Source of the DNA: Naegleria gruberi
Lineage: Eukaryota
DNA length: 64,000 nt
Direction: 5' to 3' (one strand)
NCBI GenBank assembly: GCA_000004985.1
Contig: GG738846.1
Shown here: piece after piece, positions 36,028 through 49,209 of the stretch
Layout: the number at the start of each line of letters is the position of its first letter
How positions within the stretch are numbered: the stretch's first letter is position 1
Notes under the pieces: model-generated
Database searches by the model: none
The model's input: the letters and a program-made list of their open reading frames with translations, nothing else
Told to the model about the DNA's origin: nothing
Program-made: the position numbers and the translations under genes

Positions 36028-39000
36028 TTAATTTCCTAGAGTTTGAACTTTTCTTTGTGAAAACATAGCAAGGGATTGGAAGCAAGGAGGCAAATTTTTG
36101 AATTGTTCCAATAAACTTTCTTTTAAAACTCCATAACTATAATTAAGCTCTTTTTGGGATGAAAAAACAGCAAACTCAATTAAGAATCGTACTGCAAATC
36201 CATTCTTATGTACAAGTTCAATTTTTACAGGGTGTACGCTATGTACATTGAGGTTTTTCAATTGGTCAACATTCACATCACTTTCGTGGGTGGCTTTTGG
36301 AATTGAAATTGGAATGATTATCCAAGTTGCAGAGGATGCAGTTGGTGAAACAGGCTCACCATTCACATAGACTTCACAAAACTCATTTTCAAATGTGAAA
36401 ATTTCCATTCTGTAAGTTGTTCCCTCACCTACACAGAACCATCTTTGCTTAAAATTGAACATTGAGACTCCTATATCATCCTTTATGTAAATCTCCAAGT
36501 ATTGAGATGAAGAATTTACTTGAGAAGAAACAACCTCATAAAACTTGTCCAATGTTTCGAGTCTAGAGCAAACATAACTATCTAGTGATAGAAGAGGTTG
36601 AACAGATCTTTCCTTTGTTTCGAAAAGTTCCTCATCAGTTACATTATTACTGGAATTATTTAGAATTTTACCTAGGTTCCCAGTCAATGCTAATCCAGAG
36701 GACCACCGAATTCTGTCTGAAACACTTTGAATAATAGTGTCGACCTTATCGTTTACAGACTTTTTTGGAGACAAGGTTGCATTTTCAGCTAATAAAGATT
36801 TGATACTGGATTTTAAATGATAGGCAACAAAATCCGTAACAAATGCTTCATAATCTTTGATGATTTTTGGAATTGTGGAAGAATCATCGAGATCCTGTTG
36901 TTCATCCCTTTTGTTTTCGTCCAGACTGATGTCTCTCATAAAAGGAGATCTATTTTGAGCGCTCTTAAATGCTTGTTTTGGATTAAAATAAATTGGGCTA
37001 ACCTCTGGTTGTTCAATTGTATCATCAAGTGAGCTATTATTTCTCTTTTCCTCTTTTTGTGGAGTTTTTACTGTTGCCTTATCGTCACTCCATGAGACTT
37101 TTGGCGTATTGCTTTTAGGAGTAGGAGAGTTTGTTTTCTTTGGCGTACCAATAAGTCTAGAGTTATTGCTTCTTGGAGAAGGAGTCATGTTAGTGAGAGA
37201 AGACGATGATCCTCTTTTTGGAAGTCCTTGATATTCTTTTTCAAAGAGTGAAGAGGTAAATCTGGAAGAAAACTGAATTCCATAAATACTGGAATCATCA
37301 AATAAAATACCAGGTTTGAAAATATGGAACAAATCTTTCTCTTCTACGACAGGAAGAATCATTGATGTCAATTGAATGTCGAACACTTTTTTACTCTCAA
37401 AATCTTCCAATGAGAGCTTGTTTTTGAAAGAAAGTGCCAAATTTCCAGTTGCAATATATTTCCAAGAGGTTTCTTCTTCAGTCTTTGAGGCTACGTACAG
37501 AACAACATCTTTAGATGCACATTTGACATCTTTATGTTCTTGCTCTTCTGCTATTCTCTTAATAGAAATGTCTAATGAATCTCTTTCTTTTTGTTTTTGC
37601 TTAGCAAAAGAGTAGTCTGTATACTGAAGCTTAGATCTTTGAGGATTTCTACCCAAATAAGCTTGTTTCATCTGTTGAACTAATTGCTTTTTCATTGGGG
37701 ATTCTACGTTTGTTAGTAATCTGTTTCCTAGGCGTGTTGCAAAGAATTTTCTTCCCTCAGATAAGGACATGTGTTCGAGCAAGCCTTCTATCTTCTGTCT
37801 GGCAGTTTTGTAGATGTCACTCAGTGAAGTGTCACTAAACTTAGCCAATGCAATTCTTCCCAGGCAGTCCAAAAATTCCACAAAGTTCATTAATCTACCT
37901 TCTTTGGAGACATGATCAGCTGGCTCACTAAAACTTTGGTTAATTTTACAGCAAGAGTCAAACATTTTAGCTAATTGTATCTTGGAGAACCATTTTGGAA
38001 ATATTTCAAAATCTGTACAGAACATGAAGAATTCGTCAACATTGAGAGTACTTAAACCCTTATTATAACTCACCCATTGCATTGTATCCTTGTGAGTTCT
38101 CTTTTTTTGAGTATAAAAAGTGAAGATCTTGTATATTACATCTTGATGTGTTGCCCAAAGACTGGCAACAGAGGGATCTGTCAATTCTGAAGGGGTTGGA
38201 TCGCTTGAGGTTTTTCCTGAATTTGGAAGAACCAATTCGAACAATAACTTTCTGAATAAAACTTTTACGTCTTCATCAAATTTGGACATGTCAGCTATTG
38301 TGTAGACTGGTAGTTTAGTATACTTTTTAACTGACATGAAGGCTAAGCCATTCAAAAAATCATCAAAATTCATTTTGAACGTTGGAGAGAATTTTGTTGC
38401 CTCCTCAAAGACAAGGAAAACGTCGTTAGAATGGAAAGTTTTGTCTGTAATTTTGCAGTCCTTTGCGAACTTGGCAAATTGATTACTTGTCATTTCATTA
38501 ACATCTGAGAAGGTGTGAATAATATTTGTGCAGTAGTAATTGTAAATTTCCAACAAATCCTGTTCATAACAGTAGATCAACTCAAAGTAGGATGGTCTGA
38601 TTGGATTTTCTCCTTTCCAACTCTCTTGAATGTTTGAATTGATTGAGAAATTTTGGGAAGATCCAAGTTTTCTGGAAAATTGCCTGAGGTCCAATACTGA
38701 ATTGTTGCTGTTGTTTTGATTGACGATCTTATCTTCAATTTTAAACACTGAATTTGTACAGGCAGCCAAGTAAATGGATCTGGATGCACAAAGTATTTTT
38801 CTTATTGGCTCAGATGTTTCTCCCAATATTTGAGAAGATTCTTTTGTTTCGTGATTATATTTGTAAACAGTGTTGTGTGTGGCCAGTATCATTTCCCCAT
38901 CAGAATTCATAGCTGCACCGTATAGTTTCTCAGCACTCTCTACAACTGTCCTCACAACACTATAATTTGCAAAGACCTGCCTAATTCTAGAATTTCCAAA

Positions 39001-39782
39001 GTCATTAATGTACAATGTATTTTCATGAGAAAATAAATCGGTAGGGGAATTAAGAATTGAGTTTTGAACTTTTCCATCCATAAATCCTGCTGTTCTTGGG
39101 TTTCCTGCTGCATTGGTCACGAAACCATTATTGATCCTAACAACTCTGTGATTTCCAGTATCCGAAACAAAGACATTATCCCCAATGACACAAATACCAG
39201 TTGGAGTGTCAAACATTACATCAGTTACTCTTCCAGTACTGCACCCTCTGTTTCCATTTCCCGCAAAATTTGTAATTCTTCTTCCATCCAAAGAAATCAT
39301 TTTGATTTTATGCTGTTGGGAATCACAAACAAGAAGAAAATTCTTATAAATTGCCATTCCTTTTGGATTTTGCAGTTGCGCTGAAAAGAAGGTTGTTACT
39401 ACTTTGTCTTTCATATTTACCAATCTAATTTGATGCTGTTCTGAGAGGAGGAATGAAGAATCGCCATGAGTTGTGTCATCTTTTGGAAGCATTACTATTC
39501 CTTGAATATCACTAAACCTCGCATCAGAAAGATCTCCATTCCTTAATCCAGCAAAGGATGGTTTTCCGCAAATGCACAAAGAGGCTGTCCCATCAATGTC
39601 TTTTGAATTGTTGTTCTTTAAAACTTACTGTTTGTTTCTATACCAGCAATTGTTTTTGATTCTACTGAATTTTCTACAGGGCTATCATTGTCAGAGGAGT
39701 AGGAGGCATCCCTCAACACCTTAACATTTGGCGATGAGGGAATGACAAAGTGGGAGGGGCTGCTATCCTCAATAAAGCTCAT
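36028..39782 (-). CDS. NHL-repeat (six-bladed beta-propeller) containing protein, about 1230 aa, 2 exons
   Basis: Exon 1 is 39782..39629 (AAAAAAAATG; MSFIEDSSPSHF...). Intron starts with GTAAGT at 39628; the acceptor is either 39600 (29-nt intron) or 39585 (44-nt intron, more plausible), both in frame. Exon 2 runs to 36028. N-terminal NHL repeats (e.g. FDTPTGICVIGDNVFVSDTGNHRVVRI) are followed by a large uncharacterised C-terminal region. Confidence 0.6.
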
Positions 39783-41024: not shown

Positions 41025-42315
41025 TTAACTTACTTGTGAATAAGTGTGGAGTTCTTTTACATGGGTAAATGCCTTTGAGAAATCTAGGTTGAGTTCTTTC
41101 ATAACATATCCAATTACTATTGATACACTCCTTGATTGACCAGCTAGACAATGAACAAGAATAGGCACATTCTTTTCCTTTCTTGCCCTATCAATAAAAG
41201 GAAAACATTGGTCAAATATTGAGACTATATCTTGTTTGTTGTCATCTGTTACTTGTAAATTGAGAATCTCATCAAAGAACTCAGAATATTGCTTTCCTCT
41301 AAATCCACTTTCCTCTGCAACATCAAAACATGACACATTGAGTACATATTTAACTTTGAGTACATCCACTAATAATCTTACGTTTTTGGCCGCTTGCATA
41401 GATCCTAAATAAAGATTGGGCATAATTTCTGTGGGCTATATAGAAACATTTTGGAATAATTATAGTTTCAAAATTGAAGAAACCTACAATAGTGTTCTTA
41501 ATATCGCATAATATGGTGTGATTGATTGTTACAAATTTGCTAGCACTAGATTTGGATTTACATTCTGTGTGATATTCTGCATCGCTCAGGGCATCATCTG
41601 CCTCGTACATGAATTCATGTGGAAGAGAGGAAATGTAGTTGAATCTAATGTCGAAAATAGTTCCTCTTTTTTGGAGAAGCATGATGAGTTCAATAGATGG
41701 GAATTCTGTAAGGAAATTCCATGATAAATTAATCTTTTTCAAAGTTTTTGGAAACACCTGTTCTAATATATTGACCTTCTCCGGTTGTTGAAGAAAGTCG
41801 AAATGAATTATTTTGGTAATTTTGTTGTTGGAAAAATCAATTTCTTTGATAACTGGCAAGTTTTTGAAATAGAATAATAAATCTACACTCTCCAAGCAAC
41901 CATTTGAGAAATCAAGAATACGTAATTTTGACAAAGATGATTTCACAAATGGCTCGGAAAAAGGATCTAGTTTGATTGATTCACAGAACAACACATGAAG
42001 TTCCTGGATTGACTTGCCAGAATATGACTTTTCAATATTTTGAATATCATCAATACTATTTTCCTTTGTATTTTCCTTTATAGTCTCCATGTTTTCACTA
42101 TCATTTTCATCTTCTGCAAAATAATCTAGACTAGAAAGTGGAATAGCAGAAACCGGTCCAAACTTTCCTTCGCCTTCAACATCATCATCACTTGGATAGG
42201 GATCTTGTCCGAGACTACTTGTTGAAATATTCAACACAAATTGCTTGTTCTTGTTTCCCCTCTTTTTCTTTTCTGTCTTGTTGGGTGGGGAGTTGGGAAT
42301 ATCCTTTCTTTTCAT
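41025..42315 (-). CDS. Leucine-rich-repeat plus dual-specificity phosphatase, MPL-type (MAP kinase phosphatase with LRRs), 2 exons
   Basis: Exon 1 is 42315..41488 (AAAAATG; LRR units ...LRILDFSNGCL..IDFSNNKITKI..INLSWNFLTEF...). Intron 41487..41436 (GTAGGT..TATATAG, 52 nt), phase 0. Exon 2 is 41435..41025 and encodes the DUSP catalytic domain with VHCLAGQSRS. The spliced junction reads ...CDIKNTI-PTEIMPNLYLGS. Confidence 0.8.
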
Positions 42316-42515
42316 TTTTTGATGATCTTTTCCGTTTAATAATTCTGTGATGAAGAGGAAAATGTAAACCAGATATTAAATTAAATTATTAGTATTTTAA
42401 TATTTAAATATTCCAACCTCAAGTATAAGTAAATTAACTAAAATGATTTGAAGATATTATTTGATGACTTGAATTTCCCGCCAATATTATTTACATTTAT
42501 TCAAGTCTAAAAAAA

Positions 42516-45500
42516 ATGTCATCAACGGATGAAACAATTGAGAAAGAACAACCAATATCCAATAACAATGAAAATACAATTCATCAAACAATCGATGTTG
42601 ATGATTGGAACTATCAACTCATAGAAAGAAAACTAGATAAAATAATTGAGGTGGTAAGTCTTGATGTTAAGTTCCGATATGTTTAACCATCCTATGAAGT
42701 TTTGGAAAATTGCAAAAACAGACACTCCCATCACTGACCCAATATCAAAGAGTGAACTATCAAATTTAGAAAAGAGAATTTCTACATTATTAAATCATAA
42801 TGAACAATATGGTCATATTCTCTCAAACATTTTCAAGAATATCAAGACAAGAGTCTCAAAACATAGCACTTGTTTTCAATTTGACCAATTTTTTGGTTAT
42901 ATGGAGAGAGTAGCATTCCATTTCACTTTGGTTTGGAGGAAGGAGGAATGGTTGAATTTCTTAATGTGTTTGTTGGCTTCCATCACAAAAAAAACATCTA
43001 ATTTCAAAAGCTTGCGAACACAAAGAACAAACAATCTAATCGGAAAGCTGTTTGATGAGAAGAAAATTTATTTTAGAGAAATAGATGACAAGGATCTCGT
43101 TAAATTTCTCAACAACAATGACATTAATGATACACTTTCGGATGACATTTATTGTTTGAATGAAATACCTAGTTTCAATGATTTGACTGGAGAGGAGATT
43201 AAATTAAGAGAACTGGATGAAATCCATCCAATATTGACTTTTACCAGGTTGATGGATCTTGGCAAACACTTTAATGTAAAGGGGGAAACTAAATATCAGA
43301 TTGGATTAAAAATTAAAAAAGTGGACAAACATTTTGAAAATTTGCTTCGCCTCTCATTACCTGAATCTGAACAGTTGCAAAATGTAGAATTACAACAAGG
43401 ATACGACAGCGAGGAAGAAATGATAATAGATGTCAATAAGAGGCCTAAGAGCTTTCTAATTATTGGAGATTCGTGTATGTTCATTCTTTCATGTTATATT
43501 TTAATTTTTAATTTAAACCCTAGTCTCTGGAAAGGGTCATATTGGAAAACAAATTTCAAATCACTACAATAGTGTAAGATTGGACCTTGAGGAGATGGCC
43601 AGAGAAGAATTCAAATCAAAGAGCTCAATGGGATTACAGGTAAGTGAGGTTAAAAATAACATTAACACAATTTTACAATTAATAGATTGAAAAGTATCTC
43701 AAGGAGGAACGAGCCATTCCAAACTCTTTACAAATTGAATTGTTTCAGAAATGGATTTCCTCTGACTATATTATGGATAGAGGCTATATTTTGGAGTGGG
43801 GCACTATTGACTCTGAGATTAGAAGCAGCATTGTACAGGCTCTCCAAGACAACCCTGCTAAATATGTAGTTAGCCTTCAAATGAATCCTGAAGAATCAAA
43901 GAATAGAAAATCGGAAATTATTTCAAAAATTACATCAAGAATTAGTGAGATAGAGTCACTTATTGATCAGGAGGATAATAAAGAAAGGCAAGAGCAAGAG
44001 GAGGAAAGAAGGAAACAAGAATTAAGGGAGGAAAAGAAGAAATTGATGCAAACTCAAAAATTGGAAAAGAAAAAAAAGGAACCATCAGAAGATGATGATG
44101 GAGAGAATGCTGACGAGGAGGAAACAGAAGAAGAACCTGAGGAAGAACCTGAGGAAGACGAGGAGGAAGAAGAACCAGAAGAAGACGAAGACGAAGAAGT
44201 AAGAGAGGAGAAGGAGAAGCAAAAAGCACAAATGAGAGAAAATCAATTTCTTGAAAGGTTAGAATAGTAAGTGTGATTGAATTCTTTCTTTAACTGTTAT
44301 TAGTTTTTACTTGAAAAAGAAAGCTTACCAAGAACAAGCAGATTTGGAACCACTTTCTAACACTATCCAGATAGCCAAAGAGCATTGTAAATTTTTAACA
44401 ATAGATACCTCATCTCAAAGTTTTAGAGATGCCTTCTTAATAGTTTTGCAGAAAATTGGAAGATCTACCCCTAATATTGTTGCAATTAATCCTGTCATTA
44501 TTGAAACCCCAGAAGAGGAACCTGATTATGAAGGGATAATAACAGCTCAAATTGAAAAAGGATATAAATGGAGTCGATGGAAGAAGTATTGTCCTGTTAG
44601 ATTTCATATTGATAGAGCGATTGTGGAAGGAAATATTCCAGCATTGTACAGAGGAAGACTGTATTTACTCTCCACAAAAGAATATCAAAATGAGTTTATC
44701 AACAATCCTAGATATTACCTAAAGAAGTTACCTGAGAAAAAGCAAAGAGTTTTATTTGTTTGGAACGGTGAAATTGGAGAAGAAATAATAAGAGAAGGTA
44801 AGTTTTAATATTTCGCACATCATTCTAACCAAGGATATTAAGTGTCTAAGTTTTACAAATCAGAAATTGTTAGCCTAGATCAATATGCAAAATATGCAGC
44901 CAGCCTCCCTCCTCCACCTATAAAAGAAAAGAAACTCGCTAAAAAGGTTACTATTGAGGGAGATGATGAAGATGAAGCCCCTGAGGAAGAACCTGAGGAG
45001 CAAGAAATTATGGAAGAAAATGTATTACCAGAAACTTCAGAAGATCTTCAAATATCCATCTTTGTTAGTGGAGGTTCTTCATCTTATGAAAATAGCTCAG
45101 TAATGAAATCTATTCTAGATTCTCCTGCCGAATCTCCACTCACCTCTATTGTCATTCTCACAAAGGAAAAATCCGAGCAAGAGGAAGGAGAAGAAGAACA
45201 TGCTACCGAGGAAAGTGCTGCAGTCGATGATGAAGAAGATAACAATGAAAATGAGGAGCAGGGCGAATCTGATCCAAAAGCAATAGATCCACCAGTTGAA
45301 AAGAAGGAAGTGATAGACTTTGTAAAGCTAGTCAAAGAAAAAGAGGAGTATTTACAAGCCAAAAAAATCAAATTTATAGAGGTTTCCTTTACTAACATAT
45401 GGGAAGGTGTATTAAGCGTGAGAAAACAAGTTGATCCTTTTCTAGTTGAGGCTGCAGCAGCTTCTATTGAACTACCAAAGGAAGACACAGATCCTTTCGA

Positions 45501-48391
45501 AAGAGAACATGTTCTATTGGAACAAGAAGAGAAAACGGAAGAGCAAGAAGGAGGGGACGACCCACAAGATGATGAAGAGCCTTCAAAGAAGGAGATTAGA
45601 CATGAAATTCTTGGTTTATCTGGAATATTTTGTCCAGTTACCCTTAAAAACAGACGGTTACTCGTAAAAGGTGATAGTTCGTTGTGTGTTTCTTACAAAG
45701 GAAAACACTATGTGTTTGACACACAGGAGGCTATGGATGAGTTCATACTTAGACCACATATTTACACGTCTGAAATTAGGAATACAACAAGCAATATTTG
45801 GATGATTGGAGTGGATGAACAATCTTCATACTCAACTAAAATTAGTGAAACATTCTCCCTTCCAATTGTTAAACTTGATTTAGATTTTCTTGAAAAAATT
45901 GGTAGTGAAATAGACACTGTAATCGAGTATATTAAAGAACTGGAAAAACCTATTGAGCATCCTAAAAAAGAAAAATCTGATGATGAAGAGGAAGAAGAAG
46001 AGGAGGCTCCAGAAGAAGAAGACGACGAAACAGCTAAAGAAGAAAAAAGGTTAAGAAGGCTCTGTAATATCCTCAAGTTAGTTCTCAAAGATCAAAAATA
46101 TGTAAATGGCTACATTCTTACCTCGATTCCATTGGGAGAAGTCACAGAACCCATACTAAACATTTTGGATGAACTAGAAGTTTTCCCAACCTTGTTAATC
46201 AACTTTAAGGTAAACGAGGAACAGTACGTAAAGAAAAATTTTGACAAGAATTTCTCCCAATACAAACAACACCTCCTACAAAAGAAAATTGATAAGAGAA
46301 AGAAAAAGGAGCAAGCAAAAATAGATGTCAGATTGAAGAAGAAAAAAGAGGATGATGATAATGAAGAAACTCAACAAGAGGAAGAGGAAGAAGAACCAGT
46401 TAAAACTAAGGATGAAATATTAGAAGATGTACAAAAATCATACTCAGATGCTTTTGAAAAGACAGAAGAAATATCTAACAGATACCTAGGAAAACGATTT
46501 GTTGTAAGAGATTTTGATTCAGCAAAACCAGAGAGAGTGGTAATGAGACAAGTATTAGATTTCATTTATCTTATGAAAGACAAAAAGCAAATATTTGATT
46601 TTATCACAACATGTGACCACGATACGGCCATCAAACTAGTTTTCGAAGGTAGAAAAAAGCTAGGATTTGGATATTTTGATAAGGTAGACAAATTGCAACA
46701 GACCTCACAATACCCTAAAATGGAAGGTAATTTCTTAACAATATGCCAAGATGAGGACCCATTCCAATACGTAGAACCACCAAAACAAGAGGAAGTTGCT
46801 CCTCAACAACCTGAAGAAAAGTCAAACAATGAAGAAAACCAAGACGAGGAACAAACTGATGAAGAAAAACAAGATGATGACGAACAGAATGAAGAAGAAA
46901 AGAACGAAGAAGAGGGAGATGAGCAAGAGGAAAAGGATGGTGATGAAGAGAATGAAGATGTTTCGGTAAAAAAGACTGTCAAGCCCCCAAAACCTGAAAT
47001 AAGCTTCCCAGTAGTTGTGAATAATCTTGTATTTTTCTTCAAAACAGAAAAGAATAGAGAAATCTTCCTTAAAGAGAGAACTAGACTGATAGAAACTGAA
47101 ATTGATCAAAAAGAATTCCGACCAAAAATCTTACTGTATGGAGGAGATCCGGAAAAAAGAGAAATACTTGCTAGAAAAGTTGCTGCTAAACTTGGTTGCA
47201 CTTATGTGAGTTGTCTTGAAATAGTACAAACTTTCATGAAGTATCAGACAGCAATAGGCAACCAATTTAGAAGTGAAGAAAATCCATTCCCTGAAGGTGA
47301 TGATCTTCTTTCCTATTTGAAACGTAGACTCAACCACTTTGACTGTGTGGTAAATGGTTTTATTATAGATGGTATTTTCCCAACCTATGAAGATATTAAG
47401 GAGTTTGCCAAAAAAGGTGACATTATTGATAAGGTTTTCTTTTTGGATAACCGAGAGTAAGTTTTTACAATTTCCATTCACAATAACCTGTTCTCATAGT
47501 AGCACAACTGTATCAAACGATGAGAGACAAATTGAAACATTATTCGAAATGGAAAGACCTTTCACAACCATAAGATTGGGAATACTTCCTGATTGGAGCT
47601 TAGTCTCTAGCATTGAAAGAGCTGTCACCAATACTCTACACAGACAATACAACTTTTTTGTCAACTCTTCCAAGAAGGAAATACCTGCCCCAATATTTGA
47701 TATTGGTATGGATTCTGATTTTTTCAGTGACCACATTTCAAGATTTAAAACATACTGTCCAGTCAAGTTTGTGGATGAGGGAATTCTTTTTGATACCATT
47801 ACAGACAGAACCCACACGAACAGATGTTTCTATGAGGATAAGATTTATTGTTTTAGTGATTCAAATGTCATGCAGATGTTTGTTTCAAACTATCACAAAT
47901 ACACAGACAAGAACATCAAGTTCCCAGAAGAATTACCACACGAGGTTAATGATATGCACTTGAGACATGTTTCTGAACTTCAAGAAGAGGAATACGATGA
48001 TAAGATTGCAGGTCAATATGGTTATTTGGGATTCTGTCCAATATTATTATCCTTGGGAATGGTTGTGTGGGGGAAATCCAGATTTTCTATCAAATATAAG
48101 GGTAAACTCTATAGGACGTACTCTAGTGAGGGACGAATCAAGTTTATGCAAAAACCATGGGAGTTTGTTTCCTTACAACTTCCAACCAAGTTGCCAGTCA
48201 GACAAAGAGATTGGCCAAATCTAGGAGTAGTGGAATACCTTGAAGAAAGTGTTGAAAAACTTGTTTCTTCTTCAGTTCTTGAATTGGCCAAAGTAAGACC
48301 ACTGTATAAAGGGTTGACAGTTAAGGAATCTGCAATCAAACATTTGGCCATTCTGTTGAAAAAGAATAACAAAAAATTAGAGAGCAAATAA
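42516..48391 (+). CDS. AK9: Adenylate kinase 9 (AK9/AKD1) ortholog: multi-AK-domain protein with repeated single-Cys YHS-like CPV...Y.G..Y.F.S.E..F...P..Y modules; 7 exons, 1869 aa
   Basis: Exons 42516..42653, 42700..43474, 43524..43639, 43686..44266, 44304..44797, 44843..47456, 47500..48391; total 5610 nt, all phases consistent. Introns 42654..42699, 43475..43523, 43640..43685, 44267..44303 (37 nt, short), 44798..44842, 47457..47499, each GTAAGT/GTATGT..AG. It merges five track ORFs; ORF 44311..44808 has no Met at all, so it must be an internal exon. Features: a P-loop at the exon 2/3 junction (LIIGDSF-SGKGHIGKQIS) and an AK LID-like GYILEWGTIDSEI. Four modules resemble the repeated modules of human AK9: KYCPVRFHIDRAIVEGNIPALYRGRLYLLSTKEYQNEFINNPRYY, IFCPVTLKNRRLLVKGDSSLCVSYKGKHYVFDTQEAMDEFILRPHIY, TYCPVKFVDEGILFD...YEDKIYCFSDSNVMQMFVSNYHKY and GFCPILLSLGMVVWGKSRFSIKYKGKLYRTYSSEGRIKFMQKPWEFV. 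Acidic E/D-rich linkers lie between modules. Confidence 0.75.
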
Positions 48392-48432
48392 AAGGAAAAT
48401 ATGATTTAATTCACCTTCAAGTTTTAAAAAAA

Positions 48433-49209
48433 ATGTTTCGTGATTTTGGCAGCAAGGCAGGCAGTGGTGGGCAACAAAGTGCCTCCTTGGCCAATGTTGA
48501 TCGGAGAGAAAGACAAACTCAACTAGCATTGGAAAATATTGATTTGGAAAAGGATCCATACATTATGAAAAATCACATTGGAAAATATGAATGTAAATTA
48601 TGTTTAACCCAACACAATACAATTGGAAACTATATGGCTCACACGCAAGGAAGAAGACACAAATATAACTTACACAAGAGAATTGCTGCGGATCAAAAGG
48701 ATACACCAATCAAGGGAATCCAAAAGCAAGAGAAAATGTTTAAAAAGACATTAAAAATTGGAAGACCTGGATATACAGTCTCCAAGAAAATTAATCCAGA
48801 AACTAAGCAAAAATCTCTCATCTTTGTGATACAATACCCTGAAATTGATAAAGAGTTACAACCTAGGTTTAGAATAATGAGTTCATATGAACAAAAACAG
48901 GAACCCCCAAATCCAAAATATCAATATTTATTATTTGCTGCGGATCCATACGAAACAATTGCTTTCAAAATTCCAAACAAACCAATCGATAGAGGTGAAG
49001 GTAAATTTATAACAGAGTGGGATAAAGATACCTATTCCATGACACTAAAGTTGCACTTCCAAAAAGAAGACCAAAAACAAATTCCAAAGATTCCTCCTCC
49101 TTCTGCAAAACTTCCTCCTCCACCTTCAAGTTTAGGTACAAGGAAACTAGCATTACCTGGCAAGGTTATTCCTCCACCTCCAATTAATGCACCACTCCGA
49201 AAGCAATAA
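48433..49209 (+). CDS. SF3A2: Splicing factor 3A subunit 2 (SF3a66/Prp11)
   Basis: ATG in AAAAAAAATG context. Matrin-type C2H2 zinc finger YECKLCLTQHNTIGNYMAHTQGRRHKYNL and the conserved SF3A2 core (KIGRPGY, LLFAADPYETIAFKIPN, ITEWDKDTY) are followed by a P-rich tail. Confidence 0.9.
   Translation: MFRDFGSKAGSGGQQSASLANVDRRERQTQLALENIDLEKDPYIMKNHIGKYECKLCLTQHNTIGNYMAHTQGRRHKYNLHKRIAADQKDTPIKGIQKQEKMFKKTLKIGRPGYTVSKKINPETKQKSLIFVIQYPEIDKELQPRFRIMSSYEQKQEPPNPKYQYLLFAADPYETIAFKIPNKPIDRGEGKFITEWDKDTYSMTLKLHFQKEDQKQIPKIPPPSAKLPPPPSSLGTRKLALPGKVIPPPPINAPLRKQ

What the first reader, a model, noticed from the sequence alone, without database searches (positions are those of the whole stretch)
42516..48391. 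Five track ORFs assemble into a single 1869-aa adenylate kinase 9 (AK9) ortholog
Track ORFs 42661.., 43740.., 44311.., 44842.. and 47369.. each end in or begin with GT..AG introns of 37 to 49 nt with consistent phases. ORF 44311..44808 contains no Met codon at all, so it cannot be a separate gene. The product has AK-like P-loop/LID segments and four copies of the single-Cys module CPV(x8-12)Y.G..Y.F.S.E..F...P..Y. That module also recurs in human AK9 (KWGRTCPVNLKDGNIYSG...YCLSSEEALKPFLLNPRPY, HFCPVVLKENF..., QFCPVSLAESQ..., GYCPVTYKDGNQ...), judged from recalled sequence. It also has similar long acidic linkers and a conserved C-terminal LPxKLPxxR segment. AK9 is usually discussed with cilia and nucleotide homeostasis in animals, so a full-length ortholog in a non-ciliated amoeba-like genome is notable. 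The repeated module itself (YHS/TRASH-like but with one Cys) is poorly characterised.
Basis: partly seen in the sequence, partly recalled or inferred. Interest (0 to 1): 0.5.

Follow-up and report, generated by a model that had tools for sequence, protein, structure and literature searches.

The report
Naegleria ortholog of ciliary AK9
The ORFs do join into one 1869-residue gene that is the Naegleria gruberi counterpart of adenylate kinase 9, a known head protein of a flagellar radial spoke; this is expected, because Naegleria builds flagella.

Summary
Seven exons (42516-48391, + strand) joined by six GT..AG introns of 46, 49, 46, 37, 45 and 43 nt give one 1869-aa ORF. The N. lovaniensis ortholog (1847 aa, 49% identity) aligns across five junctions without gaps; a one-residue gap lies just after the sixth.

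The AK9 call is right. All named hits outside Naegleria are AK9. Matches to mouse and bovine AK9 are colinear over their whole length. The four single-Cys CPV modules sit at the same positions as in vertebrates. A model of the C-terminal 296 residues finds only AK9 chains of radial spoke 3 (RS3) structures at significant scores.

The framing is wrong. The next gene is 100% identical to N. gruberi NEG-M SF3A2, and Naegleria is an amoeboflagellate with flagella. Published work places AK9 in the RS3 head with AK7 and LRRC23.

Three points are new:
- No N. gruberi protein for this locus appears in the protein collections searched.
- Only kinase domain I keeps a Walker A lysine. The loops of domains II-IV are degenerate in three Naegleria species, which suggests a mainly structural role.
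- The N-terminal 295 residues are found only in Naegleria.

Verdict: an ordinary new member of a known family, of modest interest.

The parts
42516..48391 (+). Whole AK9-ortholog gene. Exons: 42516-42653, 42700-43474, 43524-43639, 43686-44266, 44304-44797, 44843-47456, 47500-48391. Product: 1869 aa, 219.1 kDa, pI 4.8.
   Evidence: only open chain; junction conservation with N. lovaniensis; mass, pI, net charge about -127.
42516..43446 (+). N-terminal extension, residues 1-295, with no counterpart in animal AK9. Contains intron 1 (42654-42699).
   Evidence: Animal AK9 alignments start at residue ~285-293. A phmmer search of 1.84 billion representatives finds only N. fowleri XP_044560135 and two short fragments. 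No Pfam family.
43447..44036 (+). Kinase-like domain I (residues ~296-460). Walker A GDSFSGKG (residues 302-309) is split by intron 2 (43475-43523). Intron 3 (43640-43685) also lies inside.
   Evidence: Pfam ADK E 2.8e-8. hhalign 97.5% to animal AK9 domain I. P-loop Lys kept in three Naegleria species; the DGFPR arginine is absent.
44267..44303 (+). Shortest intron (37 nt), GTAAGT..TAG.
   Evidence: Unspliced, the frame stops at once. Spliced, it reads ERLEYFYLK, identical to N. lovaniensis across the junction.
44557..44739 (+). YHS-like single-Cys module M1 (residues 622-682, Cys633).
   Evidence: Aligns to vertebrate module 1 (stretch 2).
44746..45438 (+). Segment at the position of AK9 domain II (residues ~685-900). 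Loop is WNGEIGEE. Contains intron 5 (44798-44842).
   Evidence: Positional and colinear only. Profile comparison gives no support for a kinase fold.
45601..45780 (+). YHS-like module M2 (residues 955-1014, Cys965), the best-conserved copy.
   Evidence: Pfam FAP206 E 6.7e-9 and YHS E 1.3e-6. AF2 model pLDDT 82. It superposes on bovine and mouse AK9 with TM 0.81/0.80 and rmsd 0.6/1.0 A.
45793..46728 (+). Domain III region (residues ~1019-1330) with an acidic insertion. Loop is GVDEQSSYS.
   Evidence: The core (NGYILTSIPL...) gives hhalign 83.5% to animal domain I but only 27% to animal domain III.
46999..47103 (+). Fifth, Cys-less and shortened module (residues 1421-1455) before domain IV.
   Evidence: Aligns with the Cys-less vertebrate copy ('DPVKL...YIYFLSSKETKEKF') at the same position. 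No Pfam hit on its own.
47122..47701 (+). Kinase-like domain IV (residues ~1462-1640). Loop is GGDPEKRE (Lys to Arg). Contains intron 6 (47457-47499, with an alternative acceptor at 47502).
   Evidence: PDB AK8 and bacterial AK matches at 1444-1578. hhalign 88.9% to animal domain IV. Motif status.
47726..48184 (+). Modules M3 (residues 1649-1712, Cys1659) and M4 (1742-1801, Cys1752).
   Evidence: pLDDT about 90 in the C-terminal model.
48179..48367 (+). LPTKLPVR segment followed by a DPY30-like two-helix docking domain (residues ~1815-1862).
   Evidence: Conserved columns from Naegleria to mammals. Foldseek top hits are AK9 in 9d2f and 9fqr, followed by weak DPY30 matches. Leung et al. describe a C-terminal DPY30 domain in AK9 (PMC11779644).

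Best explanation
This is the single-copy Naegleria gruberi ortholog of adenylate kinase 9.

Shown here:
- A seven-exon gene encodes a 219-kDa, very acidic protein with the AK9 layout.
- The layout is kinase-like domain I, then repeated units of a YHS-like single-Cys module followed by a kinase-like domain, then two more modules, an LPxKLP segment and a DPY30-like C-terminal docking domain.

Inferred from the mouse, bovine and Tetrahymena work:
- In the flagellate stage the protein forms the head of radial spoke 3 together with AK7 and LRRC23 orthologs.
- It is anchored through its C-terminal DPY30-like helices onto CFAP91.
- Its acidic loops face the central apparatus.

Inferred from sequence:
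- In Naegleria the protein acts mostly as a scaffold.
- Only domain I keeps a Walker A lysine, and even it lacks the DGFPR arginine.
- The P-loops of domains II-IV have been degenerate since before the N. gruberi / N. fowleri split, so any adenylate kinase activity is limited to domain I.
For: Gene model.

Organism: (neighbouring SF3A2 identical to N. gruberi NEG-M).

Orthology:
- Every named hit outside Naegleria is AK9.
- Five colinear blocks cover mammalian AK9 residues 28-1838.
- Number and order of the CPV modules are the same.
- The C-terminal 220-260 residues align to the C-terminus of AK9 in all animals tested.
- The AF2 model of the C-terminus (pLDDT 80) hits only 9d2f_A (mouse RS3 AK9, E 2e-13) and 9fqr_Xf (bovine sperm, E 9e-12) at significant scores.
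- The module model superposes on AK9 at 0.6-1.0 A.
- Mass 219.1 kDa and pI 4.8 compare with 219 kDa reported for mouse AK9.

Role of AK9: RS3 head with two AK7 and two LRRC23 (bioRxiv 10.1101/2025.05.19.654877; PMC11779644; Tetrahymena, PMC12399478).

P-loop status.
Against: - There is no transcript or protein evidence for N. gruberi. A spliced-junction search found nothing.
- Flagellar localisation is not tested.
- Presence of AK7, LRRC23 and CFAP91 in N. gruberi could not be checked.
- Identity to animal AK9 is only 18-22%.
- Domain II cannot be shown to be kinase-like.
- Catalytic inactivity is inferred from motifs alone.
- Vertebrate AK9 domains are themselves non-canonical: domain I has no arginine at the R36 or R88 position and mammalian domain IV has none at R88. 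Motif loss is therefore an imperfect guide to activity.
Confidence: 0.75

Rival explanations
1. The protein is an active multi-site adenylate kinase, as proposed for mammalian AK9. Its main job would be local ATP regeneration in the flagellum, with the degenerate loops still binding nucleotide in a non-canonical way.
For: Domain I keeps GxxxxGK[GS] in three species and has an arginine at the E. coli R36 position. Vertebrate AK9 domains also lack some canonical arginines yet are treated as catalytic.
Against: In domains II-IV the Walker A lysine is replaced by E, S and R respectively, and the glycines are lost in all three Naegleria species. Such changes normally abolish P-loop NTP binding (general knowledge of Walker A mutants).
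Confidence: 0.15
2. It is a non-orthologous multi-kinase flagellar protein, comparable to Chlamydomonas FAP42 or CPC1 of the central apparatus, that merely resembles AK9.
For: FAP42 (7n6g_6M) gives a weak hit to domain I only (E 0.0017).
Against: AK9 matches are colinear over the whole protein and include the AK9-specific modules and C-terminal domain. No other family matches outside the kinase domains.
Confidence: 0.04
3. It is a cytoplasmic nucleotide-homeostasis enzyme of the amoeba stage, unrelated to flagella, as the first reader's 'non-ciliated' framing implies.
For: None found here. Expression stage is unknown.
Against: The organism makes flagella. The conserved parts are the ones that published structures assign to docking and partner contacts in the RS3 head: the C-terminal DPY30-like domain and domains I and IV, which contact LRRC23. 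The catalytic loops are not conserved.
Confidence: 0.04
4. The ORFs are separate genes or a decayed pseudogene.
For: No N. gruberi protein from this locus is in the collections searched.
Against: One ORF has no Met. Only one exon chain is open, over 5.6 kb of a 33%-GC sequence. N. lovaniensis and N. fowleri have single annotated proteins of 1847 and 1807 aa that align end to end at about 50% identity, with no gap at junctions 1-5 and a one-residue gap after junction 6.
Confidence: 0.02

Closest known systems
Mammalian AK9 (mouse, PDB 9D2F chain A; bovine sperm, PDB 9FQR chain Xf), the head subunit of radial spoke 3
   Same: Same order of kinase-like domains, four single-Cys YHS-like modules plus a Cys-less fifth, acidic linkers, LPxKLP segment and DPY30-like C-terminus. 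Same mass (219 kDa) and similar pI. Colinear sequence matches and fold matches.
   Different: Only 18-22% identity. Naegleria adds 295 N-terminal residues. Mammals have four canonical Walker A loops (GKPGVGKT, GPQSSGKT, GPHGSGKT, GPPKSGKT), whereas Naegleria keeps one. Domain II is not recognisable by profile comparison.
N. lovaniensis XP_044547708 and N. fowleri XP_044560135 ('hypothetical protein'; UniRef 'Adenylate kinase')
   Same: True orthologs. They are about 50% identical over the full length, including the N-terminal extension and the same degenerate loops.
   Different: They are already in the databases, though not named AK9. The N. gruberi protein is not in the collections searched.
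Tetrahymena Ak9 (RS3-dependent ciliary adenylate kinase)
   Same: A protist AK9 assigned to RS3 by proteomics of RS3 mutants (PMC12399478).
   Different: It was not retrieved or compared here. Tetrahymena is an alveolate, whereas by general knowledge Naegleria is a heterolobosean (Discoba).
YHS domain (PF04945) / TRASH-type metal-binding modules, and the C-terminal part of the FAP206/CFAP206 family model (PF12018)
   Same: Module M2 reaches the YHS whole-protein cut-off (31.3 vs 30.3 bits). All four modules hit positions ~197-253 of PF12018. The fold is a hairpin plus helix. Weak Foldseek matches go to toluene, phenol and methane monooxygenase hydroxylases; Pfam's description of YHS lists some phenol hydroxylases (my recollection).
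   Different: Only one Cys (CPV) is conserved, and none in the fifth copy. From my recollection of these families, YHS and TRASH domains usually carry several conserved cysteines, so metal binding is unlikely. The structural matches outside AK9 are not significant (E 0.4-3).
Chlamydomonas FAP42 / CPC1 (multi-kinase proteins of the central apparatus)
   Same: Large flagellar proteins with nucleotide-kinase-like domains.
   Different: Only a weak match to domain I. No modules and no AK9 C-terminus. Chlamydomonas is reported to lack AK9 and to have a short RS3.

Membership tests
AK9 orthologous group | Colinear similarity over the full length of animal AK9 | tested here: met
   Blocks Ng 293-716 / 923-1012 / 1413-1570 / 1646-1865 match mammalian or bird AK9 from residue 28 to 1838. 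There are 295 extra N-terminal residues.
AK9 orthologous group | Best hits outside the genus are AK9 (forward best hit) | tested here: met
   All named non-Naegleria hits are AK9, E 2e-24 to 8e-6. The reverse search against a Naegleria proteome was not possible.
AK9 orthologous group | Four single-Cys YHS-like modules at fixed positions (before domains II and III, and two before the C-terminus), plus a Cys-less copy before domain IV | tested here: met
   Cys 633, 965, 1659 and 1752, plus residues 1421-1455. Vertebrates have the same layout.
AK9 orthologous group | AK9-specific C-terminal region: LPxKLP segment and DPY30-like docking domain | tested here: met
   Conserved columns. Foldseek gives only AK9 chains at E below 1e-11, then weak DPY30 matches. 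Pfam Dpy-30 itself is not hit.
AK9 orthologous group | Kinase-like domains I and IV | tested here: met
   Pfam ADK E 2.8e-8 for domain I. PDB AK/AK8 hits for domain IV. hhalign 97.5% and 88.9% to the matching animal domains.
AK9 orthologous group | Kinase-like domains II and III | tested here: inconclusive
   Domain III core gives 83.5% to an animal kinase domain but 27% to animal domain III. Domain II gives below 1%. Both are placed only by position.
AK9 orthologous group | Subunit of the radial spoke 3 head with AK7 and LRRC23, docked on CFAP91 | not testable with these tools
   Known for mouse, bovine and Tetrahymena. No Naegleria data. The adjacent LRR gene is not recognisably LRRC23.
Active adenylate kinase (NMP kinase, EC 2.7.4.3) | Walker A GxxGxGK[GST] in each kinase domain | tested here: not met
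   Domain I has GDSFSGKG (Lys kept, second Gly changed to Phe). Domains II-IV have WNGEIGEE, GVDEQSSYS and GGDPEKRE. The same holds in N. lovaniensis and N. fowleri.
Active adenylate kinase (NMP kinase, EC 2.7.4.3) | NMP-site arginines (E. coli R36 and R88 of DGFPR; reference sequence recalled from memory) | tested here: not met
   Domain I has an Arg at the R36 position but EWGTI in place of DGFPR. Domain IV has IDGIFP and no arginine at the R36 position.
YHS domain (PF04945) / TRASH metal-binding modules | Profile match above Pfam's cut-off | tested here: met
   31.3 bits against a 30.3 cut-off for the whole protein, through module M2. M4 is weak (E 0.1). M1 and M3 match only PF12018.
YHS domain (PF04945) / TRASH metal-binding modules | Several conserved cysteines for metal binding (family property recalled from memory) | tested here: not met
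   A single conserved Cys per module, and none in the fifth copy.

The most novel reading that the evidence does not exclude
Naegleria AK9 is an almost complete pseudokinase. The radial spoke 3 head would then have existed in the last common ancestor of Discoba, alveolates and animals, and the conserved, selected role of AK9 would be architectural (spoke-head scaffold and contact surface with the central apparatus) rather than ATP regeneration. Which kinase domain stays active appears to be lineage-specific: unnamed protist homologs each keep only one canonical P-loop, at differing places along the protein.
Probability: 0.4. Interest if true: 0.45.

Novelty: new member of a known kind. Interest (0 to 1): 0.3.

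Why it matters
N. gruberi is a standard 'ciliated' reference species in phylogenetic profiling of cilia genes. A 5.9-kb AK9 gene that is missing from its protein set would be scored as an absence, so adding it corrects the record.

It also places the AK9-type RS3 head in Discoba, in addition to animals and ciliates, which supports an ancient origin.

Three of the four P-loops are lost while the modules and the docking domain are conserved. This gives a natural test of whether AK9 matters as an enzyme or as a spoke-head scaffold, which is relevant to AK9-linked male infertility.

None of this is categorically new.

Tried and rejected
1. The divergently transcribed upstream LRR ORF (41350-42315, minus strand) might have been the AK9 partner LRRC23. 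It gives only generic LRR matches in PDB (best E 0.004) and no Pfam family at E <= 1e-5, so I dropped the idea.

2. I looked for an existing N. gruberi annotation. There was no N. gruberi hit in the full-length search or the C-terminal profile search. The exact 1869-aa sequence is not in the 15-billion-protein collection. Contigs carrying the neighbouring SF3A2 gene are short metagenome or Logan pieces, not the annotated genome. I could not read the GenBank record itself.

3. I looked for transcript evidence. A 33-nt spliced junction across the 37-nt intron gave 0 matches in metagenome contigs.

4. I tested the C-terminus against Pfam Dpy-30 and found no hit at E <= 10. The DPY30-like call rests on weak fold matches and on the literature.

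5. I searched for relatives of the N-terminal extension and found only Naegleria sequences. No fold was assigned.

6. I tested domain II for a kinase fold by hhalign. There is no support.

7. I searched the literature for Naegleria together with AK9, AKD1, LRRC23 or AK7 and found nothing relevant.

Full report
**Observation.** The region contains the listed ORFs. It has six strong donors (five GTAAGT and one GTATGT), each followed by an AG 37-49 nt downstream. I tested all combinations of nearby acceptors. Only variants of one exon chain give an open frame from ATG 42516 to TAA 48391, and the variant that uses the first AG after each donor is 1869 aa. The exons are 42516-42653, 42700-43474, 43524-43639, 43686-44266, 44304-44797, 44843-47456 and 47500-48391. 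The introns are 46, 49, 46, 37, 45 and 43 nt. ORF 44311..44808 has no Met. The only detail left open is a tandem acceptor at the last intron (47499 or 47502, giving 1869 or 1868 aa).

**Independent support for the model.** The best database hit is N. lovaniensis XP_044547708 (1847 aa, 49% identity, 99% coverage). It aligns with no gap at junctions 1-5, including the P-loop split by intron 2 and 'ERLE|YFYLK' at the 37-nt intron; a one-residue gap lies just after junction 6. N. fowleri XP_044560135 (1807 aa) is a second single-gene ortholog. No transcript evidence was obtainable.

**Organism.** The ORF 41 nt downstream (48433-49209) is 100% identical to N. gruberi NEG-M SF3A2, XP_002682705.1. 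The window has 27-38% GC and ordinary eukaryotic neighbours: Vps18, a P-type ATPase, RagA, an EngA-type GTPase and a PPR protein. N. gruberi amoebae differentiate into flagellates (PMC2114796).

**What it is.** Pfam finds ADK (residues 300-440), FAP206 (964-1016) and YHS (976-1009). Against PDB sequences the best matches are mouse AK9 (9d2f_A) and a 1910-aa chain of the bovine sperm doublet (9fqr_Xf), in colinear stretches from the first kinase domain to the C-terminus. All named hits outside Naegleria are AK9. Domain tables against twelve homologs, nine of them named animal AK9s, show the same colinear blocks.

Vertebrate AK9 has four Walker A loops and four CPV modules. Naegleria has modules at the equivalent places: Cys 633, 965, 1659 and 1752. 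It also has a fifth, Cys-less copy before domain IV, which vertebrates share.

The C-terminal 220-260 residues align to the C-terminus of every animal AK9. An AF2 model of this region (pLDDT 80) retrieves only AK9 from the mouse RS3 structure (E 2e-13) and the bovine sperm structure (E 9e-12), followed by weak DPY30 domains. A model of module M2 (pLDDT 82) superposes on the AK9 chains at 0.6-1.0 A. It otherwise finds only weak matches to toluene, phenol and methane monooxygenase hydroxylases, which is compatible with the YHS assignment but does not establish it. Mass (219.1 kDa), pI (4.8) and net charge (about -127) resemble those of mammalian AK9.

**What is known about AK9.** Cryo-EM and proteomics place one AK9, two AK7 and two LRRC23 in the head of radial spoke 3 (RS3) in mouse and bovine cilia and sperm. 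AK9 is RS3-dependent in Tetrahymena. It is reported absent from Chlamydomonas, which has a short RS3. Leung et al. describe four catalytic domains, binding of LRRC23 to domains I and IV, and a C-terminal DPY30 domain that pairs with AK7-B and docks on CFAP91. Human AK9 mutations are cited as causing asthenozoospermia (reference list seen).

**How it most likely works in Naegleria.** By homology it should be the RS3 head subunit of the flagellate stage, docked through its conserved C-terminal helices, with acidic loops facing the central apparatus. This localisation is inferred, not shown.

The sequence shows a clear difference from animals. Only domain I keeps the Walker A lysine (GDSFSGKG), and it has EWGTI in place of DGFPR. 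The loops of domains II, III and IV are WNGEIGEE, GVDEQSSYS and GGDPEKRE, and they are equally degenerate in N. lovaniensis and N. fowleri. The domains themselves remain about 50% conserved between species about as far apart as this genus has been sampled here. I read this as selection for structure rather than catalysis.

Two caveats apply. Vertebrate AK9 domains are also partly non-canonical. Domain II of Naegleria cannot be shown to be kinase-like at all.

**Other differences.** Residues 1-295 have no counterpart in animal AK9. In 1.84 billion representative proteins they match only Naegleria sequences.

**Annotation status.** Neither homology search returned an N. gruberi protein, and the exact model is not in the collection, although the neighbouring SF3A2 is. 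The gene is probably unannotated or absent from the distributed NEG-M protein set. I could not inspect the record itself.

**Verdict.** The gene is a new member of a known family, with modest points of interest: a likely annotation gap, extension of the AK9-type RS3 head to Discoba, and pseudokinase-like degeneration of three of the four domains.

Noticed in passing
window 47457-47502: The last intron has a tandem (NAGNAG-type) acceptor, CATAG|TAG. Using 47499 gives ...NRDSTTV (1869 aa). Using 47502 gives ...NRDTTV (1868 aa), which would remove the one-residue gap against N. lovaniensis after this junction.
   Followed up: partly
window 48392-48432: Only 41 nt separate the AK9 stop codon from the ATG of the SF3A2 gene on the same strand. 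The AK9 3' end and the SF3A2 promoter/5' UTR must overlap or be extremely short.
   Followed up: no
window 41350-42515: A 321-aa leucine-rich-repeat ORF lies head to head with AK9, separated by 200 nt (42316-42515), which suggests a shared bidirectional promoter. Its exact sequence is not in the protein collection, and it shows no specific similarity to LRRC23.
   Followed up: partly
window 36028-39579 (- strand): This 1183-aa ORF has a p25-alpha/TPPP domain (E 7e-9) and an NHL repeat. By recollection, TPPP-type proteins track with cilia across eukaryotes, so this may be a second flagellum-related gene in the window.
   Followed up: no
proteins P0136, P0138 and P0141: The same single-Cys 'CPV' module occurs as tandem arrays of 3-6 copies in short, Ala/Gly/Arg-rich unnamed metagenomic proteins (one is called 'YHS domain-containing protein' by JGI). 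In P0141 the precomputed Pfam list combines PF12018/YHS with thioredoxin-type families. The module is therefore not restricted to AK9 or CFAP206, and perhaps not to eukaryotes.
   Followed up: no
database entries seen: Many C-terminal AK9 fragments in UniRef are named 'Cilia- and flagella-associated protein 206', apparently because their modules hit PF12018. The PDB table lists the 1910-aa AK9-like chain 9fqr_Xf under the molecule name 'CFAP276'. Both look like naming artefacts.
   Followed up: no
proteins P0002, P0032 and P0042: Unnamed protist-like AK9 homologs of 2040-2224 aa carry N-terminal extensions or large insertions. Each keeps only one canonical P-loop: near the N-terminus, at the domain I position, in P0002, and near residue 1700 in P0032 and P0042. 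P0002 is encoded by an intronless 6.1-kb gene on a 25-kb JGI metagenome contig.
   Followed up: partly
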